The position numbers and the translations under genes are program-made. 64,000 bases of DNA, from the NCBI GenBank assembly GCA_965226795.1, contig CBDDDZ010000005.1, forward strand, positions 1,474,016-1,538,015. The letters run 5' to 3'. The notes beneath the pieces were generated by a model. That model saw only the letters and a program-made list of their open reading frames with translations, did not search any database and was not told where the DNA came from. This stretch comes from Candidatus Latescibacterota bacterium. Its GTDB lineage: Bacteria; Latescibacterota; UBA2968; GCA-2709665. Positions within the stretch are counted from its first letter, which is position 1; every line of letters begins with the position of its first letter. Positions 9,113-60,703 of the stretch are shown one piece after another.

Positions 9113-9348
9113 GCGCCCGCCACGCGGTCCGGGTAGACGTCCGTTGCCTGTTCGAGTGGATAGTGTGAAGTTGTTCGAGAAAACCGATCGTGCGAGGACG
9201 CTTCGGTGTAATCAGGCTCGCGTGGACGTGGTCTTCGCAGTTTGGTTGGCGGTTGTCGAGTCCTCGGCCGCCGGTGTCCCGCCAGTGTTGGAAATACATC
9301 GTTCGAAACGGGCGGGATATTTGAAAGCGTCCACATCTCGAATCGATG

Positions 9349-9421
9349 CCCCTGTAGCTCAGTGGATAGAGTAGCGGATTCCTAATCCGTTGGTCGCAGG
9401 TTCGAGTCCTGCCAGGGGCAT
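9349..9421 (+). tRNA. tRNA-Arg (anticodon CCU)
   Basis: GCCCCTG-TA-GCTCAGTGGATAGAGT-A-GCGGA-TTCCTAA-TCCGT-TGGTC-GCAGGTTCGAGTCCTGC-CAGGGGC-A. Cloverleaf with 7-bp acceptor stem, anticodon loop uuCCUaa, T-loop TTCGAGT. CCA is not encoded. Confidence 0.85.
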
Positions 9422-22635: not shown

Positions 22636-23457
22636 TTACACGCCGGATTGAACGGCGCTGATTTCGTCCTTTGAGATTTTGTGTACACTCTTGGGATTGA
22701 AGGTCTGCCGTGTGCCCGACCGGAGCGCAACTTCGATTCTTCCTCCTGTCAGGACGAAAAACTGGAGTAGGAACCCTCCGCCCTGCATCGACTCGACCTG
22801 ATATTCCTCTGGGTCCATCCCGTCAACCCATCCAGGAAAATGCGCCCTGAAACGGGCATCCGCGAACACGTTTTGCGGCAGCGCCATAACCAGCGTTCCA
22901 GGCAGTTCGTTCAGGGCCTCACCGATGGTCCTTCGTATCCCGGCCAGGTAGGGGATCACCTTCCCCGCATAATCGAAGTCGTCCTCAACGCCACGCTCAG
23001 GCGGAACAATACCCCACGTCATATGGTGTATAAACGGATTGCCGTGACCCTGGGCGAGCATGTGGTCCCGGGCCGCTTCATCCACGGGATGGACGACTGC
23101 GACGTAGTCGAACCAGCCCTTTTCTCGAGCGGGACTGTCCTCGGGCAGCCCGGAGGGGACATTAATGTAGTCGTACCCGTCCACCGGCGACGGATAGCAC
23201 CGGGTGTCCCACCCGGCGACGTACCCGATGCGTTTCAAACGGCCGGCCAGAAGATGCGGGGGGTCGACAAAAATGGCGGCATGGTCCGGATTCGGCAACA
23301 GCGGTACGGCGGCGTCAGAGATCTTACGTGCAACATCGAGCGCTTCCCACAGCCGTTCGGGTGCGTTGGAAATGTCGAGTTGCTCATTGAAATCGTCCGG
23401 CAGGATAACGTTCCCGGGCATCTTTCTCTCCTCCACGGAAAGGACGATTGAAATCAA
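22636..23457 (-). CDS. Hypothetical protein (273 aa, acidic, no recognisable motif)
   Basis: Long ORF with protein-like composition on the minus strand. Function unknown. Confidence 0.5.
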   Translation of the reverse strand: MISIVLSVEERKMPGNVILPDDFNEQLDISNAPERLWEALDVARKISDAAVPLLPNPDHAAIFVDPPHLLAGRLKRIGYVAGWDTRCYPSPVDGYDYINVPSGLPEDSPAREKGWFDYVAVVHPVDEAARDHMLAQGHGNPFIHHMTWGIVPPERGVEDDFDYAGKVIPYLAGIRRTIGEALNELPGTLVMALPQNVFADARFRAHFPGWVDGMDPEEYQVESMQGGGFLLQFFVLTGGRIEVALRSGTRQTFNPKSVHKISKDEISAVQSGV

Positions 23458-23706
23458 TCACAAGGTTTGAATTGACAAAAAGATCAAGCAGCCGGCCCCG
23501 CCCACTAAGGCGCCAACCTTTCACATGTAAAATTGCGAACCGCGTTCGCGGTGTCAAGCGGAATTCGGTTCGGGGAGATGGTTAGAGAACGATACATCGG
23601 AACGTCGGCGGGATTGAAGGCGCAGCTGGAGGAAAACGAAATCGATCGACGTTTCAATCGCAAGAAGACCGTAAATGCATCAGACAAGATTGGACATTCC
23701 CCAAAT

Positions 23707-23735
23707 CCCGACTGTGAATCGGTCGGGATTTTTTC
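23707..23735 (+). terminator. Rho-independent terminator-like hairpin (CCCGAC-tgtgaatcg-GTCGGG plus ATTTTTT)
   Basis: Perfect 6-bp GC-rich stem followed by a T-run on the plus strand. No convincing plus-strand CDS lies upstream. Confidence 0.4.
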
Positions 23736-23916
23736 GTGTCACATCGACCGCAAGCGGTTTTCAAATTCGAAAACCATTCTGAAAGCTGTATTCATTCCCT
23801 GGCAAATCAGGTCATTAGCGCCTAAAACACAAACCTTTAATAAAAATACACTTATGTTTAACATCTTCAATTGGCATACGGATTGCGTGGCCTGTTTGAC
23901 GCGATGGCGCTTGTAA

Positions 23917-26103
23917 ATGGAGAGATATGTGAAACAGACCCTCTTGATCTTTATAGTATTCCTGTTCCTGGATCAGAACGCGTTGTGGGCCCAGGCGATC
24001 GCCACGCCCGACACGCTCCACTTCGGTCCGGTGCGCACAGGGACTTCAGTTCTGGATAGTATCAGTGTCGTGAACAGAGGGGAGGCCAACGTAGTCCTGA
24101 GTTCCTGGGTTGTCGACGGAACCGCCTTCCAGCTACGGGGCGACCCCTTTTCCGACGCAGACGTCGTACTGCCGCCGGAGCAGGCCATGAACCTGCGGAT
24201 CCGTTTTGAACCCCAGGATCTGGTTGTCTATTCCATGGATCTTATCGTCGAGACCAACAGCGGGGATGTGAGCATACACCTCTCGGGCGAAGGCGTTCGC
24301 GAAGTTGTGGTCATTCAGGAGATCCTCGCCGACCCGCCCTCGGACTTGGAAGGCGACGCCAATGCAGACGGCGTGCGCCACCGCTATCAGGACGAGTTCG
24401 TGGAACTGCTCAATATCGGATTCAGGCCCGTCGAGTTGGACGGATGGCAGTTGAGCGATGCGGGCACCGCGCCTCAGGCGAGGTTCACGTTTCCGGAAAA
24501 CACCCTGTTGGAACCCGGCGAACGTGCGGTTCTGTTTGGCGGTGGTTCTCCCGCAGGTTTTTCAGGACCCGTGTTCGTGGACGACGGAACGATCGGAGGG
24601 GGTCTGAATAACCGGGGTGACGCGGTTTTCCTGATCGACCCGACGGTGCCGGATACCCTGGCGACCGCTGCCTACGGCACCGCGGCGGACAAGAACCAAT
24701 CGCTGGTGCGCCACCCGCAAGGCCGGGGACCATTCGAACTCCATAGTCTGTTTCCCGGTAACGGCGCGCTGTTTTCACCGGGCCGGGCGCGTACGGTCAT
24801 ACAGCGAATCGATGTCGTGCCCGCGGATACCACCGTGGAACTGGGCGCTGTGATCCGGTTCGAAGCACAGGCTGTATTCAACGATGGGAGCGAATCCACG
24901 ATAGACGGCGGGGTGGCCTGGCATTCGACTGATGATGCGATTGTCAGTCTTTTGGACGACACCGGGACGGCGGTGGGCGTAGGTACCGTAGAGATAACCG
25001 CTAAAGTGTTGGGCGAAACGTCCATACCCGGTACCGTTGTGGTCGTGCCCCCCTTCTTGTCGGACTTGAGGGTTGCGCCCTCGGACACACTGCTGGTGGT
25101 GGGTGATGCGCTCGAGTACCGGGTGAACGGTTTAAACGGTGAGGGCGTCGAGGAGCCGGTCAGGTCCGGGCTGGTATGGCAGAGCTCGGATTCCACGGTC
25201 GCACTCCCTAAGGGGGGTAATGTGATGTTGGCCACGGGATCGGGAAATGCCTCAGTGGTCGTTCATCTGGACTCCATGTCGGGTACGGCTACGTTCCGGG
25301 CTGGTGACCGTGGAGACCCGAATGCAGATGGCGAATTCGATTTGCTGGATGCGCTCCTTACCGTCTATCTCATCCTGGACATGCGGACCGACGCCGGACC
25401 GTATGAGCGTAGCGCTGCGGATTTGAATCAGGATGGGCTTGTGGATATTCTGGATCTGGCTCTGTTGATTCGCAAAATACTGGGGGTTCCGGCTGGTGGG
25501 GCGAAACCCGCATTGGCCGGTGCTGCCGCGTGGCAGTGGGACGGTGAATGCCTGAATATCCGGGCCACGTCCGGACTTTCGGTGATTCTGATTGCATTTG
25601 ACGGTCACGTCGCGAGCGTGAAACCGCCCGTCGGAACGAAAGCGGTCGTTTCACATGCGCACCCGGGTCAAACACGCGTACTAGTCTTTCCAGTTTCGGC
25701 GGACGGGCTGGATGGCGGTAACACGGGCCTCCGGCTGGTCACCCGGGGTGAGGCCGGAAGGGTGGCCGAAGTGAGGGCCGCGGATATGTGGGGCCGACCG
25801 GTCGTGTTCAACTCCGAAGGGACGCAAAGGTTTGGATTGGAACAGAATTACCCCAATCCGTTCAACGCCTCCACAATGCTGGTCTACAGTTTACAGCGCG
25901 GGGATTATGCACAGTTGCGAATTTTCTCGACGCTGGGACAGGAAATCGCACGGCCGATCGACGGTCCGGTCGCGGCGGGCACCCACCGAGTTGTCTGGGA
26001 CGGCCGCGATGCGGAGGGGCGGCCAGCTGGGAGTGGTGTCTACCTTGGACATCTGGTGGCCGGTAAACAGCGATCCGTGATAAAGATGGTGCTGTTGAGA
26101 TAA
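23917..26103 (+). CDS. Secreted T9SS cargo protein: signal peptide, choice-of-anchor-D/ASH-like beta domain, lamin-tail domain (LTD), 2x Big_2 Ig-like domains, dockerin (two Ca-binding repeats) and a T9SS C-terminal sorting domain
   Basis: LTD: EILADPPSDLEGDANADGVRHRYQDEFVELLN...WQLSD...PGERAVLFGGG...NRGDAVFL. Dockerin: GDPNADGEFDLLDALLTVYLIL...ADLNQDGLVDILDLALLIRKILG. T9SS CTD: NYPNPFNASTMLVYSL...VWDGRDAEGRPAGSGVYLGHL...KMVLLR. Confidence 0.8.
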   Translation: MERYVKQTLLIFIVFLFLDQNALWAQAIATPDTLHFGPVRTGTSVLDSISVVNRGEANVVLSSWVVDGTAFQLRGDPFSDADVVLPPEQAMNLRIRFEPQDLVVYSMDLIVETNSGDVSIHLSGEGVREVVVIQEILADPPSDLEGDANADGVRHRYQDEFVELLNIGFRPVELDGWQLSDAGTAPQARFTFPENTLLEPGERAVLFGGGSPAGFSGPVFVDDGTIGGGLNNRGDAVFLIDPTVPDTLATAAYGTAADKNQSLVRHPQGRGPFELHSLFPGNGALFSPGRARTVIQRIDVVPADTTVELGAVIRFEAQAVFNDGSESTIDGGVAWHSTDDAIVSLLDDTGTAVGVGTVEITAKVLGETSIPGTVVVVPPFLSDLRVAPSDTLLVVGDALEYRVNGLNGEGVEEPVRSGLVWQSSDSTVALPKGGNVMLATGSGNASVVVHLDSMSGTATFRAGDRGDPNADGEFDLLDALLTVYLILDMRTDAGPYERSAADLNQDGLVDILDLALLIRKILGVPAGGAKPALAGAAAWQWDGECLNIRATSGLSVILIAFDGHVASVKPPVGTKAVVSHAHPGQTRVLVFPVSADGLDGGNTGLRLVTRGEAGRVAEVRAADMWGRPVVFNSEGTQRFGLEQNYPNPFNASTMLVYSLQRGDYAQLRIFSTLGQEIARPIDGPVAAGTHRVVWDGRDAEGRPAGSGVYLGHLVAGKQRSVIKMVLLR

Positions 26104-26213
26104 ATCCGTTGGGTCGAAGACAACAGCCGCTGTTCACCCGTCATCGGCAAACATAGGCTCTCCACCCCGTGCGGGCTGGTGCGTCCATCATCGAATATTG
26201 AAGGTATCCCAGC

Positions 26214-29200
26214 ATGCGTCGCTATATACACACATTGGCAATCCTGCTGTCTCTGGACCCGCCGCCGGCGGGTCACTGCACGCCAGCCGACACACTCTGG
26301 GTAAAGGGAGCAACCGTTCTGGCCACAGATACCGTGGGTGTTGAGGTGGTCCTTAAGAATGCACGGCCGATAGCGGGCACCACCTGGACCCTGGGATATG
26401 ATTCTTCGTCCATGGCGGTGGTCGGAGTCGATAAGACGGAGCGGACCGCAGGCATGGAGATCTATATGCACGCTGCAGGCGATTCGGTAAAAGCTCTAAT
26501 CCTGAACCCGTCTACGGGACAGGCGATTCCGCCGGGCGAGGGAGCCGTAGCCCTCTTGCGGATGGCGATTCGCGAATCCATCCCCGACGGCATCTACCCG
26601 CTGACGTTCCGTATGGTGGATCTGGTGAATACCGCGCAGCCCCCAGAGCGACTTGCAGCAGTCGGGCTGGGCGGACAGGTTCGGGTTACGTCCCAGCTTT
26701 TTTCCGTCGGGGCAACCAGCGGGTCCCCCGGTGACACCGTTTCCGTACCCCTCAAATTGCGAAACAGGGCTGTAGTGGCGGGCATTCAGGTTGAACTGAA
26801 CTGGCCTCAAGACGCGCTGAGCTTCGTGGAGGTGTTGCCCGCCGATCGAATTGCCCAATGGGATCTGTGGGCGGTTGCCAGAAACGGGAATGGCGCCATG
26901 GTTCTCGCGGCCGACCTGGATGGTACGGAGCGGATACCGCCTGGTGACGGCACGTTAGCCCTGTTGAATCTGGCCATCCCCGTCTTCTCCAACAGTAGCG
27001 CAGTGCCCATCTCTATCGAAAGCGTGAGATTGGCGAATCCGGAGGGAACGGCCCTGCCCTCCGCCTCGGAAAGCGGGGAGATCGCCATCCTGTCGAACTT
27101 GAATAGATCCCCTCAACTGGCTCTTCCAGAATATATTACCACGCCCGAAGATTCTACATTTCTGTGGCGCGCACCGGCCTTTGACCCAGACGGAGACCAA
27201 CTTGAATTCGAAGCCGAAAACCTTCCGGAATGGCTATCGCTCGACGCCGCTTCCGGGAAATTCAGCGGCAGACCCGAAGACAGGGATGTTGGCGTTTATA
27301 TAGTCAGTCTCCTGGTTTCCGACGGTCGAATCAGTGTTCCGGACTCGATGCGACTTGAAGTCACCAATCTTCCGCCTCAGATTATCGGCACGCCCGAACG
27401 TACGGCCCGCGTGGGCGCCGAATACCGTTATGCGCCGGAGGTGCGAAACCTCGATGGCGGGTATGTTCGTATTGAGGCAGACGTTCTGGGCATTCTATGG
27501 GACGCTCAGACCGGCCTCGTTATCTGGCAGCCCGAAAAACCGGGCGAATTTCGCTTGCGATTGATCGCGGTGGATCCGAATGGCGGAGAAGCCGTACAGT
27601 CATTCGATGTAACCGTAGCAGCAGGCGCCAAGGTGGTGATCGATGAGGTGTTGGCGGATCCGGCTACAGGTCCAAACGGTGATGCCAACCGGGACGGGGT
27701 TAGAGACAGCAAGTCAGACGAGTTTGTTGAAATATGGAATGTTGATTCGAAGCCGGTGACGATAGGCGGATGGTGGCTAAGCGACGACGACGTCGGGTCA
27801 AGCGGGCGATTTCATTTTCCGGACGGCACGGTACTTGAACCGGGAACCCGCGCGGTGCTGTTTGGCGGTGGCGAGCCAAGAGATATTCCCGGGCGCGTAT
27901 TTGTGGACGACGGCAGTATCGGTAATGGATTGACCAATAAGGGGGATCTGGTCTTGCTTGTCGATCCGGTTTCTGAAGATACGATGGCAGTTGCCGACTT
28001 CCGGGTAAAGGGCGACCTGAACCGATCCGTGGTGAGGCTGGCCGAAGGCATTTACGTTCCACATCCCGATTTACCGGACGGTGGGGTCATATCCCCAGGC
28101 CGGCCGCATCCGAACCCCGCGGACCCGGAGGAAACGGCGAAACCACCACGGCCGGTATTTCTGGATGCCCCCCCATCGTGGTGCCGGGTTGGCGCGCTTT
28201 GTCGGTTCGTGCCCAGAATTCGCAATCTGGACGGTGGGTTCGTGCGTCTTGAAACCCGTGTACTTGGTGTCGTGTGGGACCGTTCCACGGGCGAGATTTT
28301 ATGGAGGCCCGATAAGGAAGGGCGTTTTCGTTTCTGGCAAACCGCGGTAAGTGGCGCGGGCGAGACGACCGTCAGGCAGTTTGATGTATGGGTTGAGCCC
28401 CGTCCGAAAATTGCAATTGTCGAAATTCTGGCAGACCCTCCGCCCGGCGTATACGGAGACGTAAATGGAGATGGAACGCGAGATAGTCAGGCGGACGAAT
28501 TTGTCGAGATCTTGAATGAAGGACCGGATGCAGTCTGGCTTACGGACTGGCGGCTGAGCGACGATGATGTATCGGACCGCCGGCAGTTTCGGTTTCCCAA
28601 TCTGACGCGCCTCCAGCCGGGAGAACGAGCCGTGTTGTTCGGAGGGGGACGTCCCGTGGGGGTCGAGGGCCAGGTGTTTGTGGATGACGGCAGCATCGGC
28701 AACGGGTTGACCAACAAGGCCGATGTGATTCTGTTGATCGACCCCGTCCTGAACGACACGCTTGGCCGCGCTTCTTATCATGTGGAGTCGGATATCGACC
28801 AGTCTCTGGTGTGGGACGGCACGGGCTGGATTCCGCATGAGACCCCACCGGGCCGAGGAGTTTTTTCGCCTGGACTACCGCGGGAGATGGGTACCGTCAT
28901 AACGGAAAACGCAGATGACAAACAAGACGGGGGAACGGACGGTGGGGTAGGACCGAATGAAGCGGAAAGAAACGCCCGATACCCGTCAGGGTCCGTTCCA
29001 TCAGGCGTAATTATCAATGAGATCCTGGCCAATCCCACCCATGGTGCAAACGGCGATGCCAACGGAGACGGCGAACGCCATGGATATCAGGACGAATTCC
29101 TCGAACTCAAGAACACAGGACCCGATACAGCTTACCTGGACGGATGCAGGCTAGGAGATGACGATGTGCCGCTGGACCGTCTGTTCGGATTTCCAACCGG

Positions 29201-31094
29201 CACGGTGCTTCCGCCAGGCCGTTTTGTGGTCCTGTTCGGTGGCGGCTCTACGACGGATTTCCCCGGAACAGCGTTTGTGGATGATGGCCGGATAGGCGAT
29301 GGGCTCTCGAATTCGGGCGACACTGTGGTTTTCCTGTCACCCGATGGCGCAGATACGCTCGATGTCGCCACCTTTGACAAGGCACCGGAAGGGGCCTCTC
29401 TGGTCCGCCGCGAGGATTCCACGCTGCAAAGGCATGATCGTCTGCCATTCATCGGGTGGTTCTCACCCGGACGCGCGGCACCGAAGCTGGTCGCGATCCG
29501 CATCGTTCCCGACACGTTGATCCTGGAAACTGGAACCAGCCGCGCCGTCGCCGCACAGGGTATTTTCAATTCGGATCTTGTATCCGATGTCACGGACAAC
29601 CTGAATTGGACCGTTGAAGACTCCTCGGTTGCGAAACTTGAAACGGGGATGCGGCTACGGGGCGTAGCGCCGGGCGAGACGGCGGTGCACGCGTGGTTCG
29701 GGCGTCTCACGTCAAACGCCGTCGTCAGGATACTTTCGAAGACGACGAACGAAAGTGCCGATTCGAGCAGTGGAATCGACGACAACACGGGCAGTGCGAA
29801 TCCCTCATCCAACCTTCCGCCGGTAATCCTCACGCGCCCCGACACGCTGGCCATCACGGGTCTCAGGTACTTGTACCGGCCGAAGGCCGAGGATCCCGAA
29901 GGTGATCCTGTGGTTTTTTTGGCGCCGCAGAGACCAGCCTGGCTTCAATGGACGGAAACCGATTTGGAGGGTTTACCGGAAAACACTGGTTTCTGGCCGG
30001 TTGTCATCGCGGCGACGGACGGCAGGGACACGACGGAACAGGCGTTCACCATCCGCGTCGTAAGACCCGGCGTTCTTCCCGCGAGCCGACCGGACAGCGT
30101 TGCCTACGTTGGTGTAACGTGGCGGATGTATCTGGATATCAGCGACGGAATTCAGACCCAGATAGACGGTGGACCTGTTCTCGAAGCCTCGGGCGAAACC
30201 CTGATGTGGCGCCCGCAGACGGGCGACGAAGGCCAACGGTTGATCACGGTTTCCATGAGTGGAAACGGTGTCGAAAGCCTGATCTTGACATTCAGGATCA
30301 CGGTCTGGCCTCGACCGCTGATCCGCGTCGATGAGATTCTGGTCGATCCGACCGCGGATGTAAACGGAGATGGAAATCTCGACCCATACGGAGACCAATT
30401 CATCGAATTGCTCAATGCCGCCGCTCACGGGGTGGATCTGGCCGGCTGGACGCTCGGTGACGACGACGGGGAACCGTTTACATTCCCTCGAGGTACGATT
30501 TTGAAAGGTGGAGATCGATTGACCCTGTTCGGTGGTGGGCCGCACACGCGTGGGAATGGCCGGTTTTCCGCCGCCGGCAGGATCGGGAACGGGCTGGCTG
30601 CCTCAGATCGGATCCTATTAATCGCACCGGGCGGACCGGACACGCTGGTCGATGTGCAATACGCCAACGGACAGGTTGGCGCGTCTTTGGTGCCCGACCC
30701 GGAAAAACCGGGGGATTGGCTGCCTCACAACCAGGTTTCGAATCTGCCGTTTTCGCCGGGAATGGCGACACCTGTAGCGGATACCGCATTACCTGACTCC
30801 TTGGAAAACTCTGCGAATGATCTTGAAGGCTATCCGGTTCACCCGTTTCCAAACCCATTCAATTTGCACACGACCATCGGGTTTCGAAGCACCGGCGATC
30901 CGGCGGAATTTACGGTTTACAACATTCTCGGACAACCCGTACGCCGGTTTTCGGTTACAACGGGTGCGGGTTTTCATCAATTGGTGTGGGACGGACGCGA
31001 CAATCTGGGGCGATCGGTGGGAACGGGCGTATATCTCATTCGTATTCGAATCGGATTTCGCGTCCGCACGATGCGAGTGGTTCTGGTAAGATGA
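26214..31094 (+). CDS. Giant (1626 aa) secreted T9SS cargo protein: two N-terminal cohesin-like modules, five repeats of [putative-Ig/cadherin-like + lamin-tail domain], a Big_2 domain and a T9SS C-terminal sorting domain
   Basis: Cohesin-like blocks (GATVLATDTVGVEVVLKNARPIAGTTWTLGYDSSSMAVVGVD.. and SPGDTVSVPLKLRNRAVVAGIQVELNWPQDALSFVEV..). Five LTD copies (E[VI]LADP..GD[AV]NGDG.RDS.[AS]DEFVE[IL].N..W.LSDDD..F.FP.GT.L.PG.RAVLFGGG..VFVDDG[SR]IGNGL[TS]N.[GA]D.V.L). T9SS CTD: PNPFNLHTTIGF...VWDGRDNLGRSVGTGVYLIRI...RVVLVR. Confidence 0.8.
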   Translation: MRRYIHTLAILLSLDPPPAGHCTPADTLWVKGATVLATDTVGVEVVLKNARPIAGTTWTLGYDSSSMAVVGVDKTERTAGMEIYMHAAGDSVKALILNPSTGQAIPPGEGAVALLRMAIRESIPDGIYPLTFRMVDLVNTAQPPERLAAVGLGGQVRVTSQLFSVGATSGSPGDTVSVPLKLRNRAVVAGIQVELNWPQDALSFVEVLPADRIAQWDLWAVARNGNGAMVLAADLDGTERIPPGDGTLALLNLAIPVFSNSSAVPISIESVRLANPEGTALPSASESGEIAILSNLNRSPQLALPEYITTPEDSTFLWRAPAFDPDGDQLEFEAENLPEWLSLDAASGKFSGRPEDRDVGVYIVSLLVSDGRISVPDSMRLEVTNLPPQIIGTPERTARVGAEYRYAPEVRNLDGGYVRIEADVLGILWDAQTGLVIWQPEKPGEFRLRLIAVDPNGGEAVQSFDVTVAAGAKVVIDEVLADPATGPNGDANRDGVRDSKSDEFVEIWNVDSKPVTIGGWWLSDDDVGSSGRFHFPDGTVLEPGTRAVLFGGGEPRDIPGRVFVDDGSIGNGLTNKGDLVLLVDPVSEDTMAVADFRVKGDLNRSVVRLAEGIYVPHPDLPDGGVISPGRPHPNPADPEETAKPPRPVFLDAPPSWCRVGALCRFVPRIRNLDGGFVRLETRVLGVVWDRSTGEILWRPDKEGRFRFWQTAVSGAGETTVRQFDVWVEPRPKIAIVEILADPPPGVYGDVNGDGTRDSQADEFVEILNEGPDAVWLTDWRLSDDDVSDRRQFRFPNLTRLQPGERAVLFGGGRPVGVEGQVFVDDGSIGNGLTNKADVILLIDPVLNDTLGRASYHVESDIDQSLVWDGTGWIPHETPPGRGVFSPGLPREMGTVITENADDKQDGGTDGGVGPNEAERNARYPSGSVPSGVIINEILANPTHGANGDANGDGERHGYQDEFLELKNTGPDTAYLDGCRLGDDDVPLDRLFGFPTGTVLPPGRFVVLFGGGSTTDFPGTAFVDDGRIGDGLSNSGDTVVFLSPDGADTLDVATFDKAPEGASLVRREDSTLQRHDRLPFIGWFSPGRAAPKLVAIRIVPDTLILETGTSRAVAAQGIFNSDLVSDVTDNLNWTVEDSSVAKLETGMRLRGVAPGETAVHAWFGRLTSNAVVRILSKTTNESADSSSGIDDNTGSANPSSNLPPVILTRPDTLAITGLRYLYRPKAEDPEGDPVVFLAPQRPAWLQWTETDLEGLPENTGFWPVVIAATDGRDTTEQAFTIRVVRPGVLPASRPDSVAYVGVTWRMYLDISDGIQTQIDGGPVLEASGETLMWRPQTGDEGQRLITVSMSGNGVESLILTFRITVWPRPLIRVDEILVDPTADVNGDGNLDPYGDQFIELLNAAAHGVDLAGWTLGDDDGEPFTFPRGTILKGGDRLTLFGGGPHTRGNGRFSAAGRIGNGLAASDRILLIAPGGPDTLVDVQYANGQVGASLVPDPEKPGDWLPHNQVSNLPFSPGMATPVADTALPDSLENSANDLEGYPVHPFPNPFNLHTTIGFRSTGDPAEFTVYNILGQPVRRFSVTTGAGFHQLVWDGRDNLGRSVGTGVYLIRIRIGFRVRTMRVVLVR

Positions 31095-31278
31095 CCTCGG
31101 GAAAGACCATCCGCAGCCGTCCAGGTCCAAAGATAATATGCCGCAGGTACCGGCGAGCTGAAAGCCCCGAATGAATGTGACAGGCTGCCTTCGTGCAGAT
31201 GTGGAGAGATAATGCCGTTCATCGTCCGCAACATCATTGCGGCCGGAATGAAAAAAACGAGGAAAGGGGGTGGAATTC

Positions 31279-31539
31279 ATGGCACAGCCCGAGATTACGT
31301 TCAGACACGGTTCCTGCAGCGCTTCCGTATTCGAGAACGAATATAACCGCGGCAAGGATAGTTTCAACGTCCGTACCGTTTCGTTTCAGAGAAGCTACCG
31401 GGACAAGCAAGGCGAGTGGCAGCGATCCAGCAGCCTGCGGGTGAACGATATCCCGAAGGCGATTCTGGTACTCAACAAGGCCTACGAGTACTTGACCTCC
31501 AACGGTCACGCCGAAGCCGAAGAAGAAACCGAAAGCTGA
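31279..31539 (+). CDS. Hypothetical small protein (86 aa)
   Basis: AAAGGGGG SD about 8 nt before the ATG at 31279, and its own terminator hairpin downstream. Beta-strand-rich sequence with an acidic tail. Confidence 0.5.
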   Translation: MAQPEITFRHGSCSASVFENEYNRGKDSFNVRTVSFQRSYRDKQGEWQRSSSLRVNDIPKAILVLNKAYEYLTSNGHAEAEEETES

Positions 31540-40462: not shown

Positions 40463-43204
40463 GTGATGGTCACAGTTGAAAATGGAGCCAATACTGCCAC
40501 GATGACTCTGGACAAGGAAACGGTAACGTTTTCCGAAGGCGAAACCGTTTTTGACGTGGCGCAAAAGCACTCCAAAGATGTGCCGACGCTGTGTTACGAC
40601 TCCCGGCTGAAACCCTTTGGAAGTTGCCGCCTCTGCGTGGTGGATGTGGAGGGTGCGCGAACCCCCCTGGCTTCATGCACCACGCCCGCGACACCGGGGA
40701 TGGTCGTGCGTACGGAGACGGATGCGATACTGAGGTATCGAAAGGTGTTGCTGGAGATGGTGGCCTCCGAAAACCCCGTGATCGACGTAGACCCCCTTAG
40801 TGGTTACGCCTCCCAGGAACTGGCAACTCTTGTAGATCGATACGGTGCGCGGACCGGCCGGTTCAAGGGAGCGCAGTCCGGACGCAGCAAGGTGGAGGAC
40901 GACAATCCATTTCTTCTGCGTGATTATGACAAATGCATCTCTTGCTACCGTTGCGTCAGGGTATGTGCCGAGCAGGAGGGAGATGATGCAATCAGCGTGA
41001 TGAACCGCGGCTTCGAGACACAGATTGTAACCGAATTCGATGGTCTGCTGAAAGAGTCGTCATGTACGTTTTGCGGGCAGTGTATTCAGACGTGCCCCAC
41101 GGGTGCGCTTGCGGACAAGAAAGCGTTGCGGGCGTCCAGCGATCCGGGCGAAATTAAAAAAACGCGTACTATCTGCCCGTATTGCGGGGTGGGGTGTTCG
41201 GTGGACGTAATGATCAAAGGGGAGAAGATTGTGGGCATCCAGCCCGCGATGGACGGTCCCGCAAACCTGGGTGCGCTTTGTGTCAAGGGACAGTTTGCTT
41301 TCGACTTCGTACACCACCGTGATCGGCTGAAGATGCCGCTGGTGCGCGGAGGAGACGGCAGACTGCACGAAACGAGCTGGGAGGAGGCACTGGATCGCGC
41401 CGCGCAGGGTTTCAAGGATGCGCGGGCGGCGCATGGGAAGTACAGCGCGTACGGGGTGGCCTCCGGCCGTGCGCCTACCGAGGCTGCCTACCTGATGGGT
41501 AAATTCATCCGCGCCGGCTTCGGCACCAACTATATAGACAACTGCAGCCGTGCGTGACACGCCCCAACGGTTGCCGGTCTGGCAGCCACGGTCGGACGGG
41601 GCGCGATGTCGAATCCACTGGTCGATATGGAAAAGCCCGATGTGTTCTTCTGCATCGGGACGAATATGACCGAGTGCCATCCAGTGGCGGCCACGCGGCT
41701 AAAGAAAGCGATACGCAGGGGGGCAAAACTGATTGTCGCGGATCCCCGGCGCATCCCTCTGGCCGAGATGGCGGATCTGTATCTTCCGTTACGGGTGGGA
41801 TCCGACGTTGCGCTCTTGCTTGCGATGGCCCACGTCATCGCAAGGGAAGGGTTGATCGACCGGGACTTTATCGAAAACCGGACGGTGAAGGCTGAGGACT
41901 TCCTGGAGCATGTGAAGGAGTATCCCCCGGAATGGGCCGAGAGAATCACGGGCGTGCCAGCGAAGGACATTGAACTGGCCGCCATCTGGTACGGCATGGC
42001 CGATAGGGGTGCAATTTACTATACGCTGGGAATTACCGAGCATATCTGTGGCGTTGACAATGTTCAGAGCCTCTGTAATCTGGCCCTGATGACGGGAAAC
42101 CTGGGGCGCGACGGTACGGGCATCAATCCGATGCGCGGCCAGAACAATATCCAGGGCGCAGGGGATTCGGGAGCTGTTCCGGATAAATTCCCAGGGTTCC
42201 AGCCGTGCGACGACCAGGAAAACGCGATAAAATTCTCACGCCTTTATGGCCGGCGTATCGACGCGGAAAAGGGTGTTACCAAGGTGGCGGCATTGAACCT
42301 GTGCGGCGACCGGATCCGCGCAATGATGATAGACGGCGAGAACACTGTTGTATCCGATCCGGACCGGGCGCATTGCACGCGGGCATTGCAGAGCCTGGAC
42401 CACCTGGTGGTGATCGATATTTTCTTGACCGAAACGGCTGAACTTGCCGACGTCGTGCTGCCGGCCACGGCTTGGGGGGAGACGGACGGGACGTGCACGA
42501 ATACCGAGCGGCGTGTCCAGCGCCTGCGCGCGGCGGTCCCGCCCCCTGGCGAGGCCCGTCCCGATTGGTGGATTGTAAGTGAGCTTGCGAAACGCATGGG
42601 AACGCCGGGATTCGGGTATGGTTCTGCGAAAGACGTGTTCAACGAGTTGTGCAGCGTGTCGCCCATATACGCAGGGCTGAATTGGGATCGAATCGAACAC
42701 GGGCAGTATCATTGGCCGGTCCCGTACGGAGGCCATCCCGGCACGCCGATGTTGCACGAAGGCGAATTTTCAAACGGCCGGGGTATTTTCACGAAGATTC
42801 GCTATCGCGATCCGGCGGAGACGGTCAGCGACGCCTTTCCGGTTTGGTTGACTACGGGTCGCAGATTGCAGGCCTACCATACTCGAACTCAGACAGGGCG
42901 GGCGACGGGGATGGACTGGCTTCTTTCCGAAGAGACGCTGGAAGTACATCCGGCGGACGTGTCGGCCTGGGGTCTGACCGACGGCGGCTTGTGCCGGATG
43001 TCGAGCGAACGAGGTTCCATTCGGATCAAGGTGAAGGCGACCCGGCAATCACCCCGTGGTACCGTGTTTGCCAGTTTTGGTTTCAATGACGTTCCGGTGA
43101 ATATCCTGACCGGTTCGGGCTACGATCCCATTACGGAGACAGCCGAATTAAAGGTTTGTCCGGTTCGTATTGAACCACTTGTACCAGAACGATATATACC
43201 CTAA
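40463..43204 (+). CDS. fdhA: Formate dehydrogenase alpha subunit (molybdopterin, NuoG-like N-terminal Fe-S domains) with in-frame UGA selenocysteine at 41555..41557
   Basis: Track ORFs 40463..41557 and 41606..43204 are in the same frame. Read-through gives ...NYIDNCSRA-U-HAPTVAGLAATVGRG..., matching the conserved C-x-R-[VA]-U-H-[GA]-P-[ST]-V-x-G-L selenocysteine site of FdhF/FdhA. A bSECIS-like hairpin follows. Confidence 0.9.
41569..41587 (+). promoter_or_regulatory. Bacterial SECIS-like hairpin (GGUUGCC-GGUCU-GGCAGCC) 12 nt downstream of the UGA
   Basis: 7-bp stem (one G-U pair) with the apical loop GGUCU. Sequence and spacing resemble the E. coli fdhF SECIS (UGCA-GGUC-UGCA). Confidence 0.6.
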
Positions 43205-43213
43205 GGATTAAAG

Positions 43214-44044
43214 TTGAATTCAGGCATTACACAGCGAGTCGTGTCGAGGGTGAATAACGGCTGTCCGGCGCGTTCGATTCAGGACGATATCGCGATAGAA
43301 GAGCCCCTGGAAATCCGCGTGGCGGGGGATCCGGTGGCCGTCACCATGCGCTCTCCCGGAAATGACTCCCGGCTCGCCGTGGGTTTTCTGTTTTCGGAAG
43401 GGATTATCGCGTCTATCGAGGACATTGGGCGGGTATATCACTGCGGAAGGCCCGGGACAGAGGCATACGGTAATGCGATTGACGTGCTGCCCGCGCCCGG
43501 CCACAGTCTGGATATCGAGCGGGTTAGCGCCAGCCGGCGCGGCACGCTGACGACGTCTGCGTGTGGGGTATGTGGTCGACTGGGCATAGCTGACCTGGTG
43601 GAGCGTTGTTCTGTTTTGCCGCCTGGACCGAAGATATCGGCGAAATTGCTATCTGATACGATTGAAAATATGACACGGATTCAGCCCACATTCACCCACA
43701 CCGGCGGTGTGCACGCCGCCGCCGCGTTCGGCCTGGACGGCTGCGCGCTTGTATGCAGCGAAGATGTGGGCCGACACAATGCCGTGGACAAAACCGTCGG
43801 CGCACTGCTTTTCGACAGATTGGTGGGAGCGTCTCGGGGAGCCGTCGTACTGGCCGTCAGCGGCAGATCGAGCTTTGAAATCGTCCAGAAAGCGGCAGTC
43901 GCACGAATTCCTATTGTTGCAAGCGTCTCGGCCGCCAGTTCGCTGGCGGTCGATCTTGCAACCGATGTGGGTATTACTCTTGCGGGATTTGTTCGCCGGA
44001 AGGGCTTCAATCTGTACGCGCACCCTGAACGGATTGTGCCATAA
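43214..44044 (+). CDS. fdhD: Formate dehydrogenase accessory sulfurtransferase FdhD
   Basis: DDIAIEEPLEIRV..TTSACGVCG (catalytic Cys loop)..EDVGRHNAVDK. Confidence 0.9.
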   Translation: MNSGITQRVVSRVNNGCPARSIQDDIAIEEPLEIRVAGDPVAVTMRSPGNDSRLAVGFLFSEGIIASIEDIGRVYHCGRPGTEAYGNAIDVLPAPGHSLDIERVSASRRGTLTTSACGVCGRLGIADLVERCSVLPPGPKISAKLLSDTIENMTRIQPTFTHTGGVHAAAAFGLDGCALVCSEDVGRHNAVDKTVGALLFDRLVGASRGAVVLAVSGRSSFEIVQKAAVARIPIVASVSAASSLAVDLATDVGITLAGFVRRKGFNLYAHPERIVP

Positions 44045-60300: not shown

Positions 60301-60703
60301 ACCGGCCGTTTGGACCGCCCGTTTGCCCCACAGCGGGGATTACGACGTCTACTATTATTTCCTTTCTCCCAGGTTCTCGAAGCGTCTGCGTATGGCATCG
60401 GAATTCAATCTGGCCGTCTGCCACGGTGGCCAGGTGGATACGCTGACGGTGGAAGCACACGAACTGAAGGCGGGCTGGAACGTCCTGGGACGTTACCGGT
60501 TCGAGGGTGGGGAATTGGCCCGTGTCGAATTGTCCGACCGTGCCAACGGCCGGCTGTACGCCGACGCGGTGCGCTGGAGGTACGTAGACCCTGACCATCC
60601 GGAGGACGTATACGAAGAGGAACTTCCCACCTGGAACTTCGGCGGCGGCGGCCGCAGGGGTGACCGGGGAGGGCGTGGACAAAGCCGCGGAGGACGATGG
60701 TAA
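57317..60703 (+). CDS. ABC-2-type permease (6 TM) fused to a ~860-aa extracytoplasmic domain (M1-aminopeptidase-like / GldG-like architecture possible; no HEXXH seen); RG-rich C-terminus
   Basis: Six hydrophobic helices in the first ~270 aa. Long soluble domain; no HEXXH gluzincin motif found by eye. The ATGA junction with the upstream ATPase suggests coupling. Confidence 0.6.
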   Translation: MALNMDTAFTIFSVARYERKLLMRTIRFRILGGIGVLIPVVLGVGLAIAEARGVEFESVSGIGAYMPFYVYSFLQTVVIAFIVGDFRAADERAGIYEVVAARPLSTAELVMGKYLGVLGALTTLSLVVLVLSLGVHAAKISITGAPFTIRPYLAYWLLLNLPGLVYMSALTFFLGAVLRRQAAVTVLVVAYVVIVLLFLGRRYGGIFDFGAFFAPVFYSDMLGLGDIRRVVEIRFFYMMLALFFFGLSIDRYPRLPQSRPWRRFGRCLTAAGLVAALALYVYMESRDSADLEYRMAQLEIQERYADWPAVEVTHYTLDLDLAADRTPLRGRAVLNVLNPHPVRLDTLVFSLNPGLKLRSVSAKQATDVAVNWRREYATVQVARPLQPDSLATLVFVYDGSIDLSGFDLRRHPDTRRLQKRRAGPGRKGDLTAWIRRNSVFLPPRSRWYPSPGVDYGHRDGRPVSFATADLNISLPAGLEVVTQGVPVNREPTGRREIHTWKVERPVPVFSLNAGVYRVYQAEIHDIECAIYVHPSHAKQVTFFEDARDDALNTLGEILDSVEQETSLAYPYERLSVVEVPFQVQWYYDGWEEAGGLVQPGVLMLEEDVLMRLRLGQRLKWMQRRQRQNDDPARIKRDLLVSTILNTFLASESSQSGIYRSPVAQLWSFNKGFEGEHYSLLKRGMPIYMQKHLGTNLQQTFYSRRGRFRGRFRRDRGGSGVSWDTLTAMMRQRSFAELDPNADAELYRAVVDAKGASLFGMMQAVVGDDAFRDVISGFEEANRHIGVDFASFERAAVGDSSGGVNGPDLNRLVRDWLHNTHVPGYTLTRAKAYKVDDGWGMMTYQIIVRIRNGEPGRGFVQIRALGTEDEAVKGVEIEGGQEVEVGLILWERPSRISIEPFFARNRRILMAPLRIPEQPMDGSATTYVREVSPDETGLTEIIVDNDDEGFEMPVRRVRRYLRPQLKGDNWQERQLPFSFGRYENNFRWKKPGDGAQPAVWTARLPHSGDYDVYYYFLSPRFSKRLRMASEFNLAVCHGGQVDTLTVEAHELKAGWNVLGRYRFEGGELARVELSDRANGRLYADAVRWRYVDPDHPEDVYEEELPTWNFGGGGRRGDRGGRGQSRGGRW

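What the first reader, a model, noticed from the sequence alone, without database searches (positions are those of the whole stretch)
26214..31094. Giant T9SS protein with five lamin-tail-domain repeats alternating with Ig/cadherin-like modules
The 1626-aa protein has five well-conserved copies of a ~150-aa LTD-type module (E[VI]LADP..GDxNGDG.RDSxxDEFVEx.N...WxLSDDD...FxFPxGTxLxPGxRAVLFGGG...VFVDDGxIGNGLxNxxDxVxL). Each is preceded by a putative-Ig (He_PIG/cadherin-like) module. A sixth LTD sits in the neighbouring protein. Internal DNA repeats this large are also prone to misassembly. Bacterial LTD proteins are poorly understood (proposed roles in DNA or membrane association and nuclease tethering). 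A surface-exposed five-LTD array is unusual.
Basis: seen in the sequence. Interest (0 to 1): 0.55.

Follow-up and report, generated by a model that had tools for sequence, protein, structure and literature searches.

The report
Cohesin–dockerin-linked lamin-tail surface protein pair
A large secreted surface protein of an uncultured Latescibacterota bacterium carries four (not five) lamin-tail modules, a common protein type, but its two cohesin modules probably clip onto the dockerin-bearing sister protein encoded next door, and relatives encode that assembly as one fused chain.

Summary
The 1626-aa ORF (26214..31094, +) is real and correctly assembled. It holds four lamin-tail domains (LTDs), not five. 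The neighbour (23917..26103) holds the fifth, not a sixth. The LTD assignment holds by profile (Pfam 176 bits) and by fold (best PDB matches are lamin Ig tails). The LTD copies are only 53-61% identical as DNA, and the longest exact repeat is 14 nt. Relatives in independent assemblies, several of megabase scale, have the same layout, so misassembly is excluded.

A multi-LTD array is not unusual. The profile finds 16,644 protein clusters, many with 3-9 LTDs, mostly with He_PIG, Big_2 and T9SS tail domains and no enzyme domain.

In all 9 distinct related loci examined, a cohesin-LTD gene sits directly downstream of a dockerin-LTD gene. In 11 further fetched loci one ORF joins the neighbour's Ig-LTD head to LTD1, with cohesins and dockerin deleted. 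This happened at least twice.

Best reading: a non-enzymatic, acidic, probably Ca2+-binding surface fibre built from two T9SS cargo proteins through a cohesin-dockerin clip. Its ligand is unknown. It is a new variant of known kinds and of moderate interest.

The parts
23917..26103 (+). Partner gene, 728 aa: signal peptide, ASH/HYDIN-type Ig, LTD, two Big_2-like modules, dockerin, 115-aa module of unknown family, T9SS C-terminal domain
   Evidence: ORF. Pfam LTD 66.3 bits, Dockerin_1 32.6 bits (cut-off 22.9), HYDIN_VesB_CFA65-like_Ig 25.3 bits against a 25.5 cut-off, i.e. marginally below. TIGR04183 24.3 bits, cut-off 23. Conserved directly upstream of the cohesin-LTD gene in all 9 distinct loci examined.
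24298..24792 (+). LTD of the partner (LTDn, aa 128-292)
   Evidence: Pfam. Local profile score 221 bits. 43-53% identical to the four LTDs of the giant.
25297..25488 (+). Dockerin (aa 461-524): two DxNxDG loops, each followed by a helix-forming segment (DPNADGEFDLLD..., DLNQDGLVDILD...)
   Evidence: Pfam PF00404 E=9e-8. Sequence read. 84-100% identical in close relatives.
26214..31094 (+). The giant gene, 1626 aa, acidic (pI 4.56, net charge -86)
   Evidence: A 100% identical protein, P0001, is on record on a 5.54-Mb contig.
26289..27098 (+). Two cohesin domains (aa 26-160 and 161-295), 30% identical to each other
   Evidence: Pfam PF00963, 2 stretches, 54.8 bits against a 24.1 cut-off. Sequence match to clostridial scaffoldin cohesins 6kg8/6kgc (E=3e-4) and 2vn5/1g1k. 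Identity between the two.
27102..27623 (+). He_PIG module (aa 297-386) and first Ig-like spacer IgA1 (aa 387-470)
   Evidence: He_PIG 58.9 bits. IgA1 gives only a weak He_PIG hit, E=9e-4.
27624..28109 (+). LTD1 (aa 471-632)
28140..28400 (+). Ig-like spacer IgA2 (aa 643-729), basic (pI 10.6)
   Evidence: 47% identical to IgA1. No Pfam hit on its own. Charge.
28401..28889 (+). LTD2 (aa 730-892)
28998..29483 (+). LTD3 (aa 929-1090), preceded by a 36-aa Gly/Asp-rich linker and not by an Ig module
29484..29729 (+). Big_2-like module (aa 1091-1172)
   Evidence: Pfam Big_2 21.7 bits, just below the 22.8 cut-off.
29802..30311 (+). Second He_PIG-like module (aa 1197-1283) and spacer IgA3 (aa 1284-1366)
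   Evidence: 34% identical to He_PIG1, and 36-39% identical to IgA1/IgA2. No Pfam hit on their own.
30312..30779 (+). LTD4 (aa 1367-1522), the most diverged copy; it lacks 4 residues before the Ca-loop
30834..31091 (+). T9SS type A C-terminal sorting domain (aa 1541-1626)
   Evidence: TIGR04183 31.1 bits, cut-off 23. FlgD_ig 25.1 bits, below its cut-off of 27. 40% identical to the partner's C-terminal domain.

Best explanation
The two adjacent genes encode the two halves of one non-enzymatic cell-surface fibre of a Latescibacterota bacterium.

Step 1: both proteins are exported. Sec signal peptides are read from the sequence; the giant's is weak. Type A C-terminal domains are shown by profile, and passage through a type IX secretion system is inferred from them.

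Step 2 (inferred from the Porphyromonas/Bacteroidota paradigm): the giant stays anchored to the outer membrane by its C-terminal end, so its two N-terminal cohesins point outwards.

Step 3 (inferred from comparative genomics): the dockerin of the 728-aa partner binds one or both cohesins in a Ca2+-dependent way. This adds the partner's Ig-LTD head to the tip of the giant. The result is a chain, or a fork, displaying five or six LTDs separated by Ig-like spacers.

Step 4 (inferred): each LTD carries an invariant DxNxDG...D loop of the calcium-binding DxDxDG type and is strongly acidic, so the fibre is Ca2+-loaded and stiffened.

Step 5 (inferred, the weakest step): the LTDs are the working modules and bind a repetitive extracellular ligand multivalently. 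That makes the fibre an adhesin for a particle, matrix or host surface rather than an enzyme scaffold or a direct DNA binder.

In many relatives the same chain is made as one polypeptide, because a deletion has replaced the cohesin-dockerin clip with a peptide bond.
For: Domains. Four LTDs, two cohesins, He_PIG and a T9SS C-terminal domain lie in the giant. An Ig module, one LTD, a dockerin and a T9SS C-terminal domain lie in the partner. The LTD, cohesin, dockerin, first He_PIG and TIGR04183 matches are all above the curated cut-offs. The cohesins match solved scaffoldin cohesins. The LTD fold is confirmed.

Operon. The two genes are 110 nt apart on the same strand with no terminator-like site between them. 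A 12-bp terminator-like hairpin lies upstream at 23703-23731. The two genes overlap by 4 nt in L026 and L027.

Pairing. In 9 of 9 distinct loci with a cohesin-LTD gene, a dockerin-LTD gene lies directly upstream. These are the window, L001=L007, L002, L006, L003, L004, L026, L027 and L033. They go down to 36% identity and sit in different genomic contexts. At least 13 further 50%-identity clusters have two N-terminal cohesins plus an LTD array, and 9 clusters have the partner layout.

Fusion. In 11 further fetched loci (L005, L008-L017) one continuous ORF of 1463-1569 aa (stop to stop) reads signal peptide, Ig, LTDn, a short junction, then LTD1 through LTD4 and the C-terminal domain, with no cohesin and no dockerin. 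That is the same N-to-C order as the proposed docked complex. Five junction lengths occur, from 23 to 113 residues. L005 is nested among split-type genomes. The fusion therefore arose at least twice.

Functional modules. LTDs are the best conserved modules (79-91% identity to the three closest relatives compared, against 68-81% for the cohesins and 66-95% for the Ig-type modules, most of them lower). D20, N22 and D24 are invariant, and G25, D32 and E33 nearly invariant, in 88 LTDs from several phyla. The LTD profile's loop region weakly matches both dockerin Ca-loops.

No enzyme. No catalytic domain lies in either protein. Only 1 of 33 of the best multi-LTD relatives has a nuclease domain.
Against: No binding was tested.

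The joint loss of cohesins and dockerin is partly a geometric necessity. Any in-frame deletion fusing these two genes must remove the 3' part of the first gene (dockerin) and the 5' part of the second (cohesins). So co-loss is not independent proof of binding. It shows only that the fusion is tolerated and that the cohesins are dispensable once the head is attached covalently.

Both proteins have their own T9SS C-terminal domain, so each could be anchored separately.

Other dockerin proteins may exist in the 5.5-Mb genome. I could not scan it.

The two cohesins are only 30% identical and may have different partners.

The giant's signal peptide is atypical (MRRYIHTLAILLSLDPPPAGHC). T9SS genes were not looked for.

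Ca2+ binding and the adhesin role rest on motif and architecture alone. The ligand is unknown.

The locus is dispensable. One 4.08-Mb relative has no LTD gene between rpoN and the small ORF.
Confidence: 0.5

Rival explanations
1. Cellulosome-like enzyme scaffold. The giant is a scaffoldin whose cohesins recruit dockerin-bearing hydrolases encoded elsewhere in the genome. The neighbour is only one of several clients, and the LTDs serve as spacers or anchors.
For: Cohesin and dockerin are the signature modules of such complexes. A scaffoldin with tandem cohesins and a T9SS C-terminal domain has been inferred in Cloacimonadota (PMC8542988). An LTD-plus-cohesin anchoring protein is proposed in the planctomycete 'planctosome' (PMC6461901). 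Cellulosome-affiliated enzymes are reported for Latescibacteria (Farag et al. 2017 as cited in PMC7081726). The two cohesins differ (30% identity) and could have different clients.
Against: There are only two cohesins and no carbohydrate-binding module. The conserved adjacent client has no catalytic domain. The cohesins were deleted at least twice together with the neighbour's dockerin and the deletion was kept, which would orphan any other client. The 34 annotated ORFs of this 64-kb window contain no other dockerin or cohesin.
Confidence: 0.15
2. Extracellular-DNA trap. The LTD array binds extracellular DNA at the cell surface for nutrient scavenging, biofilm matrix attachment or uptake.
For: LTDs are fused to extracellular nucleases and ComEC/ComA-type proteins (ExeM, PMC6085458; Izemoplasmatales locus, PMC8289736; haloarchaeal ComA-like proteins, PMC5118699). 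They have been proposed as DNA-binding modules of secreted DNases (PMC4486849). Deleting the LTD slows ExeM in vitro.
Against: Every LTD here is strongly acidic (net -10 to -14, pI 4.3-4.5). No nuclease domain lies in the pair or among the flanking ORFs scanned. Only 1 of 33 multi-LTD relatives has a nuclease domain. The ExeM LTD is dispensable for DNA degradation in vivo, and its role is stated to be unresolved. Binding bridged by divalent cations is not excluded.
Confidence: 0.12
3. Cell-to-cell fastener. Both proteins stay anchored by their own C-terminal domains, and cohesins on one cell bind dockerins on a neighbouring cell, giving Ca2+-dependent aggregation.
For: Both proteins carry a T9SS C-terminal domain. 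The dockerin lies in the C-terminal third of the partner, close to that domain. Cohesin-dockerin binding works in trans by nature.
Against: The fused single-chain forms lack both modules and still keep the LTD array. Aggregation through this clip therefore cannot be the conserved function. The fusion reproduces the order expected for docking in cis.
Confidence: 0.1
4. Variable protective coat or decoy. The LTD fibre is a dispensable outer coat shaped by pressure from phage, grazers or a host, with no specific ligand.
For: The locus is structurally very variable between related genomes. It occurs as a split pair, as fused genes with five junction lengths, as a compact 1083-1095-aa form with five LTDs, and is absent in one genome. 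The spacer, cohesin and head Ig modules mostly evolve faster than the flanking housekeeping genes.
Against: The LTD modules themselves are as conserved as RpoN (79-91% against 83-87%), which points to a specific constrained function. A total of five or six LTDs recurs in most forms of the locus, although one distant single-gene form has four.
Confidence: 0.1
5. Assembly artefact. The repeat number was inflated or collapsed by misassembly of internal repeats.
Against: The longest exact DNA repeat is 14 nt and LTD copies are 53-61% identical at DNA level. There is no tandem repeat. An identical protein lies on a 5.54-Mb contig, and orthologues of 1619 and 1623 aa with the same module order lie on megabase-scale contigs of other assemblies.
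Confidence: 0.01

Closest known systems
Multi-LTD T9SS surface proteins ('lamin tail domain-containing proteins', Pfam PF00932), here found in metagenome-derived proteins
   Same: The same LTD subtype with the GDxNGDG..DEF loop. The same partner modules (He_PIG, Big_2, Big_9) and the same FlgD_ig/Por_Secre_tail C-terminal domain. Arrays of 3-9 LTDs and no catalytic domain.
   Different: Most lack cohesins. The window's protein belongs to a subgroup (at least 13 further clusters at 50% identity) with two N-terminal cohesins and a dockerin-bearing partner gene.
Non-cellulosomal cohesin-dockerin assemblies proposed in silico: the 'planctosome' of Nemodlikiaceae (PMC6461901) and the cellulosome-like complex of Ca. 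Stygibacter, Cloacimonadota (PMC8542988)
   Same: A secreted scaffold protein with cohesin(s) in a Gram-negative bacterium, dockerin-bearing clients, and Ca2+-dependent docking assumed. The planctosome anchoring protein also carries an LTD, and the Stygibacter scaffoldin also carries a T9SS C-terminal domain.
   Different: In those models the clients are peptidases and glycoside hydrolases, and the LTD is a single presumed membrane anchor. Here the only identified client is a non-catalytic paralogous LTD protein encoded next door. The LTDs are the repeated payload. The clip is repeatedly replaced by a gene fusion.
Clostridial cellulosome scaffoldins (for example the C. acetobutylicum scaffoldin cohesins of 6kg8/6kgc and the cohesins of 2vn5/1g1k)
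   Same: The cohesin fold family is detectable by sequence (E=3e-4). The dockerin is of the duplicated loop-helix type. A dockerin-bearing cellulosomal component with two LTDs exists in C. thermocellum (Cthe_0239: LTD, LTD, Fn3, CotH; PMC6083626).
   Different: No carbohydrate-binding module and no enzymes. The organism is diderm and uses T9SS-type sorting domains instead of SLH or sortase anchoring. There are only two cohesins.
LTD-bearing extracellular nucleases (ExeM of Shewanella; ExeM/NucH family)
   Same: An N-terminal LTD in a secreted, envelope-associated protein. The function of the LTD is unresolved (PMC6085458).
   Different: ExeM has one LTD plus OB-fold and EEP nuclease domains. 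The window's proteins have no nuclease domain and carry four and one LTDs.
Eukaryotic nuclear lamin Ig-fold tail, and BT_1938 (DUF4876 lipoprotein, PDB 4q1z)
   Different: 13-18% sequence identity. The bacterial module is ~45 residues longer (162 against ~115 aa), with the DxNxDG loop and a C-terminal extension. The cellular context differs.

Membership tests
Lamin tail domain (Pfam PF00932) | Profile match above the curated gathering score | tested here: met
   176.3 bits against 34.3, 4 stretches, in the giant; 66.3 bits in the neighbour. A local profile of 88 sequences finds exactly 4 and 1 domains.
Lamin tail domain (Pfam PF00932) | Ig-like beta-sandwich fold of the lamin tail type | tested here: met
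T9SS type A cargo | C-terminal sorting domain (TIGR04183 / Por_Secre_tail) | tested here: met
   31.1 bits (giant) and 24.3 bits (neighbour) against a cut-off of 23, at the extreme C-terminus.
T9SS type A cargo | N-terminal Sec signal peptide | tested here: inconclusive
   The neighbour has a classical one (MERYVKQTLLIFIVFLFLDQNALWA/QA). The giant has MRR plus a short hydrophobic core (YIHTLAILLSL) and an odd c-region. This is conserved in close relatives and classical in L004. No signal-peptide predictor was available.
T9SS type A cargo | T9SS machinery (PorK/L/M/N, Sov, PorU/V) encoded in the genome | not testable with these tools
   Only 64 kb of the ~5.5-Mb genome is held, and none of these genes is in the window.
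Cohesin (PF00963) | Profile match above cut-off and similarity to solved cohesins | tested here: met
   54.8 bits against 24.1, two stretches. Matches to 6kg8/6kgc at E=3e-4, and to 2vn5/1g1k at E=1.3e-3.
Dockerin type I (PF00404) | Profile match above cut-off; duplicated Ca-binding loop (DxNxDGxxDxxD) plus helix | tested here: met
   32.6 bits against 22.9 over profile positions 2-57 of 57. The two loops DPNADGEFDLLD and DLNQDGLVDILD are read in the sequence.
Cohesin-dockerin complex | Physical, Ca2+-dependent binding of this dockerin to these cohesins | not testable with these tools
Support is comparative only: 9 of 9 loci paired, and fused forms are collinear with the proposed complex.
Cellulosome / enzyme scaffoldin | Dockerin-bearing catalytic subunits and a substrate-binding module on the scaffoldin | tested here: not met
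   No catalytic domain or carbohydrate-binding module lies in either protein, and none with a dockerin lies in the window. The rest of the genome was not examined.
ExeM/NucH-type LTD nuclease | EEP or other nuclease domain joined to the LTD | tested here: not met
   No nuclease family matched in either protein at E<=0.01.
He_PIG (PF05345) / cadherin-like Ig modules | Profile match above cut-off for each spacer | tested here: inconclusive
   Only aa 306-383 passes (58.9 bits). IgA1 scores 20 bits against 24. IgA2, IgA3 and the second He_PIG-like module give no hit alone, but are 34-47% identical to the modules that do.

The most novel reading that the evidence does not exclude
The pair is a dedicated, self-assembling surface fibre. 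Its cohesin-dockerin clip has a single client, a paralogous structural LTD protein encoded next door, and in evolution the clip is interchangeable with a peptide bond (split, fused, compact and absent states at one locus). With two cohesins the split form could carry two heads and so be forked and hexavalent, giving it a different avidity or geometry from the linear fused form. That would make this locus a natural experiment on why bacteria choose non-covalent or covalent assembly of surface structures. It would also give a tractable entry point to the still unknown ligand of prokaryotic LTDs.
Probability: 0.3. Interest if true: 0.6.

Novelty: new variant of a known kind. Interest (0 to 1): 0.42.

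Why it matters
Prokaryotic lamin-tail domains are abundant, with 16,644 protein clusters for this subtype alone. They were noticed about twenty years ago and still have no demonstrated function. Non-cellulosomal cohesin-dockerin pairs are also widespread but have rarely been tied to a defined partner.

This locus offers a simple, testable case: one dockerin, two cohesins, no enzymes, and natural single-chain versions in close relatives. It gives direct predictions for binding assays. It also shows which modules are under the strongest constraint (the LTDs and their invariant DxNxDG loop), so it points to where a ligand search should start.

For annotation, it corrects the picture of an oddity. 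Multi-LTD T9SS proteins are a common class of surface protein, and the repeat array is not an assembly problem.

Tried and rejected
1. Tandem Repeats Finder and a direct-repeat search on 23900-31100 found no long or near-identical DNA repeats. The misassembly idea was rejected.

2. An exact look-up of the window protein in the contig index returned 'not on record', although the homologue search then returned a 100% identical protein, P0001. The source contig itself could not be fetched.

3. phmmer of LTD1 against PDB sequences found nothing meaningful. The fold comparison was needed to confirm the LTD.

There is therefore no structural test of the interface.

5. I suspected the conserved 86-aa ORF downstream (31279..31539) was a PC4/Whirly-like ssDNA-binding protein functionally tied to the LTD genes. 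Its model is four strands plus a helix and an acidic tail (pLDDT 81), but no PDB fold matches significantly (best E=0.11). No Pfam, NCBIfam or PDB sequence match exists. It persists in a genome that lacks the LTD genes. A functional link was rejected as unsupported; it looks like backbone synteny.

6. Literature searches for Latescibacteria with cohesin and dockerin, or with T9SS, found nothing. A broad search for an LTD-adhesin link found nothing specific.

7. I considered counting dockerin proteins in the source genome through a database search. I dropped this because short, diverged dockerins would not be ranked reliably and no genome-level access exists.

8. Antisense ORFs inside the gene (for example 29132..29857, -) were not examined individually. 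No annotation evidence for them came up, and no gene was called on the opposite strand inside the orthologous genes in the related loci.


Full report
**The object**

The window contains one uninterrupted ORF at 26214..31094 (+), 1626 aa, and just upstream a 728-aa ORF at 23917..26103 (+).

Pfam and NCBIfam give the following for the giant:
- LTD (PF00932): E=2.5e-52, 176 bits, 4 stretches.
- Cohesin (PF00963): 2 stretches, 48-55 bits.
- He_PIG: 58.9 bits.
- A T9SS type A C-terminal domain (TIGR04183): 31.1 bits against a cut-off of 23.

For the neighbour they give an ASH/HYDIN-type Ig module (marginally below cut-off), one LTD (66 bits), Dockerin_1 (32.6 bits against 22.9) and the same kind of C-terminal domain (24.3 against 23).

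From motifs, pairwise alignments and profile hits the module order of the giant is:
- signal peptide
- cohesin 1 (aa 26-160) and cohesin 2 (161-295)
- He_PIG (297-386) and IgA1 (387-470)
- LTD1 (471-632)
- IgA2 (643-729)
- LTD2 (730-892)
- a Gly/Asp-rich linker
- LTD3 (929-1090)
- a Big_2-like module (1091-1172)
- a He_PIG-like module (1197-1283) and IgA3 (1284-1366)
- LTD4 (1367-1522)
- the C-terminal sorting domain (1541-1626)

The neighbour reads: signal peptide, Ig, LTD (128-292), two Big_2-like modules, dockerin (461-524), a 115-aa module of no known family, and the C-terminal sorting domain.

**Check of the observation**

The repeats exist and are LTDs, but there are four in the giant, not five. 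An unfiltered hmmsearch with a profile of 88 LTD sequences at E<=10 finds no cryptic fifth copy. The neighbour holds the fifth LTD, not a sixth.

The copies are 43-54% identical as protein and 53-61% as DNA. The longest exact DNA repeat in the two genes is 14 nt. Tandem Repeats Finder finds nothing. The direct-repeat families are at most 56 nt at 61-81% identity.

An Ig-like module precedes LTD1, LTD2 and LTD4, but not LTD3. Only one He_PIG module passes Pfam's threshold.

**Organism and assembly**

Related loci come from MAGs titled Candidatus Latescibacterota. A few are labelled Gemmatimonadota, and some of those bins carry 'RHO' names. I believe the RHO names denote sponge samples, but that is my reading and not a tool result.

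A 100% identical protein is on record on a 5.54-Mb contig. Orthologues of 1619 and 1623 aa (81% and 76% identical) lie on 7.1-Mb and 5.6-Mb contigs of other assemblies. Their contig names suggest long-read assemblies, one of them circular, which is again my reading of the names. They have the same module order and the same flanking genes: lptC/A, lptB and rpoN upstream, and a small ORF, a SpoIIE-type phosphatase and an aldehyde dehydrogenase downstream. The repeat number is not an artefact.

**Is a multi-LTD array unusual?**

No. The profile of the five window LTDs, scored against 1.84 billion representative proteins, finds 16,644 clusters at E<=1e-3 and 5,892 at E<=1e-10. Among the best 150, most have 2-9 LTD copies and several have 7-9.

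In 33 of the best non-cohesin multi-LTD relatives, the co-occurring families are He_PIG (15), FlgD_ig (13) and Por_Secre_tail (3) C-terminal domains, Big_2 (9), Big_9 (6) and Calx-beta (3). Only one has a nuclease domain. Small single-LTD proteins with a PEP-CTERM or T9SS tail are also common in several phyla.

Tandem LTD repeats in one protein are already noted in the literature, in a statement citing Mans et al. 2004 and Dittmer and Misteli 2011 that is quoted in PMC6085458.

The giant begins with two cohesins, and the neighbour carries a dockerin. The cohesins match solved scaffoldin cohesins by sequence (6kg8/6kgc at E=3e-4; 2vn5/1g1k). The dockerin has the classical duplicated loop-helix pattern (DPNADGEFDLLD..., DLNQDGLVDILD...).

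The two genes are 110 nt apart with no terminator-like site between them. A strong terminator-like hairpin lies upstream at 23703-23731.

**Comparative evidence**

I fetched 33 related loci.

(a) In every locus with a cohesin-LTD gene, a dockerin-LTD gene lies directly upstream. There are 9 distinct cases: the window, L001=L007, L002, L006, L003, L004, L026, L027 and L033. This holds down to 36% identity of the giant, in different genomic contexts, and with 4-nt gene overlaps in L026 and L027. In L033 the dockerin was not in the precomputed Pfam list, but my local dockerin profile finds it at E=1e-22. Local profiles also find 13 further 50%-identity clusters with two N-terminal cohesins plus an LTD array, and 9 clusters with the neighbour's layout.

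(b) In 11 further fetched loci (L005, L008-L017) a single continuous ORF of 1463-1569 aa (stop to stop) reads signal peptide, Ig, LTDn, a short junction, then LTD1, IgA2, LTD2, LTD3 and so on to LTD4 and the C-terminal domain. Deleted are the neighbour's Big_2 modules, dockerin, unknown module and C-terminal domain, the intergenic spacer, and the giant's signal peptide, cohesins, He_PIG and IgA1. This single chain has five LTDs. Its order is exactly that expected if the dockerin of the neighbour docks on the N-terminal cohesins of the giant.

(c) The junctions differ. A whole Big_2 module (113 residues) is kept in L012 and L016. About 30 residues of it are kept in L009, L011 and L013-L015. L010 and L017 have a 45-residue junction, L008 has 23 residues and L005 has 31. 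In trees of the C-terminal 450 aa and of the neighbouring aldehyde dehydrogenase, L005 groups with the window among split-type genomes, while the other fused loci form one or two other clades. The most distant relatives (L003, L004) are split. If regaining about 3.3 kb is taken as unlikely, the split state is ancestral and the fusion arose at least twice, probably three or more times.

(d) Two further states exist at the same place. One is a compact 1083-1095-aa gene with five LTDs and one Big_2-like module (L030-L032). The other is no LTD gene at all between rpoN and the small ORF, in a 4.08-Mb genome (L028/L029).

**Caveat on the co-loss**

An in-frame deletion that fuses these two genes must remove the 3' part of the first and the 5' part of the second, which is where the dockerin and the cohesins lie. 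Their joint absence is therefore not independent evidence of binding.

What the fusions do show is this. The two proteins act as one unit (the Rosetta-stone argument). The covalent product is collinear with the proposed complex. The cohesins become dispensable once the head is attached covalently, which argues against other essential clients.

**Properties of the LTDs**

All five are strongly acidic (net -10 to -14, pI 4.3-4.5).

In the 88-sequence alignment from several phyla, D20, N22, D24, E36, D54, F80 and L103 are invariant. G19, G25, D32, E33, F34 and the FGGG motif are nearly so. The segment G-D-x-N-x-D-G-x-x-D...D-E-F has the pattern of a DxDxDG-type calcium loop. That is my reading from established knowledge of such loops in dockerins, EF-hands and thrombospondin repeats. 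In line with it, the LTD profile weakly matches both dockerin loops of the neighbour.

Between the window and its three closest relatives compared, the LTDs are the most conserved modules of the two proteins (79-91%), similar to RpoN (83-87%). The cohesins are at 68-81%, the head Ig at 66-75% and the Big_2-like modules at 68-85%.

**Mechanism proposed**

Shown: domain content, gene order, conservation pattern, fused variants.

Inferred:
- Sec export and T9SS passage of both proteins.
- Anchoring of the giant by its C-terminal end.
- Ca2+-dependent docking of the neighbour's dockerin on the distal cohesins, giving a fibre with five LTDs (one head) or six (two heads).
- Ca2+ loading of each LTD.
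- Multivalent binding of an unknown repetitive ligand, that is, an adhesin.

The acidity and the absence of any nuclease domain argue against direct DNA binding, though cation-bridged binding is not excluded. The absence of enzymes and of a carbohydrate-binding module argues against a cellulosome-like enzyme scaffold, though I could not scan the rest of the genome for other dockerins.

**Relation to what is known**

The function of prokaryotic LTDs is unresolved. In ExeM the LTD is dispensable in vivo, and its deletion slows the enzyme in vitro (PMC6085458). Other papers only speculate on membrane or DNA association.

Cohesin-dockerin systems outside cellulosomes have been proposed in silico. 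One is a scaffoldin with a T9SS C-terminal domain in Cloacimonadota (PMC8542988). Another is an LTD-plus-cohesin anchoring protein in the planctomycete 'planctosome' (PMC6461901). A dockerin-bearing cellulosomal component with two LTDs exists in C. thermocellum (PMC6083626).

I found no paper describing a cohesin-dockerin pair joining two LTD proteins, or its replacement by fusion. The library searched is incomplete, so this is not proof of novelty.

**Verdict**

The finding is real but miscounted, and its headline, an unusual five-LTD array, is ordinary. The interesting part lies at the two ends of the intergenic gap: a probably dedicated cohesin-dockerin clip between two paralogous, non-catalytic LTD surface proteins. 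It is conserved over a broad clade and repeatedly replaced by a peptide bond. I rate it a new variant of known kinds, interest 0.42.

**Seen in passing**

- A formate-dehydrogenase alpha gene is interrupted by an in-frame TGA at 41555-41557 in the classical selenocysteine context, with a hairpin just downstream.
- A lineage-specific, highly conserved 86-aa ORF lies downstream of the giant.
- A conserved 273-aa ORF of no known family lies on the minus strand upstream.

Noticed in passing
window 40463..43204 (+), TGA at 41555-41557: A formate-dehydrogenase-alpha-type molybdopterin oxidoreductase is split into two same-frame ORFs by an in-frame TGA, in the context N-C-S-R-A-[TGA]-H-A-P-T-V-A-G-L. 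This is the classical selenocysteine position. A hairpin (GGUUGCC-GGUCU-GGCAGCC) starts 14 nt after the TGA, which from memory closely resembles the E. coli fdhF SECIS, although the fold is not better than shuffles overall (z=-1.4). FdhD follows at 43214..44044. This is probably a selenoprotein and not a pseudogene.
   Followed up: partly
window 31279..31539 (+): An 86-aa ORF (MAQPEITFRHG...; the listed GTG start at 31270 is probably too early) lies directly downstream of the giant in nearly every related locus that carries LTD genes (not in the distant L025), and overlaps it by 4 nt in L026. The search returned 276 clusters; the 120 listed are 67-93% identical, mostly unnamed or 'hypothetical protein', with no Pfam, NCBIfam or PDB sequence match. 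The model is four strands plus a helix and an acidic tail (pLDDT 81), with no significant PDB fold match. It is also present in a genome that lacks the LTD genes, so the link is probably synteny only.
   Followed up: yes
L028/L029 7758-9001; L030-L032 5657-8948: The site between rpoN and the small ORF is a hotspot of structural variation. In one 4.08-Mb genome it holds no LTD gene and no detectable remnant. In others it holds a compact 1083-1095-aa protein with five LTDs, apparently made by duplication of an LTD pair.
   Followed up: partly
window 22636..23457 (-): A 273-aa ORF on the minus strand between rpoN and the LTD genes is conserved at 86-92% identity in the close relatives and has no Pfam or NCBIfam match. 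A 12-bp GC-rich terminator-like hairpin with a T-run lies at 23703-23731 (+), between it and the LTD operon.
   Followed up: no
window 25489..25836 (+), neighbour aa 525-640: A basic 115-aa module (pI 9.2) between the dockerin and the T9SS C-terminal domain has no family match. It is detectable only in the closest relatives (66-87% identical). Its position next to the dockerin recalls the X-module-dockerin dyads of clostridial type II systems, but in the opposite order. That resemblance is from memory only.
   Followed up: no
window 57317..60703 (+): A 1128-aa protein with an ABC-2-type membrane region and a Golvesin_C domain. In the window an FdhD gene lies about 13 kb upstream (43214..44044). 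In L027 and L030-L032, FdhD, an ABC ATPase gene and a Golvesin_C gene directly follow one another.
   Followed up: no
window 9347..9421 (+): tRNA-Arg (CCU). It is the only RNA family found in the window at gathering threshold.
   Followed up: yes
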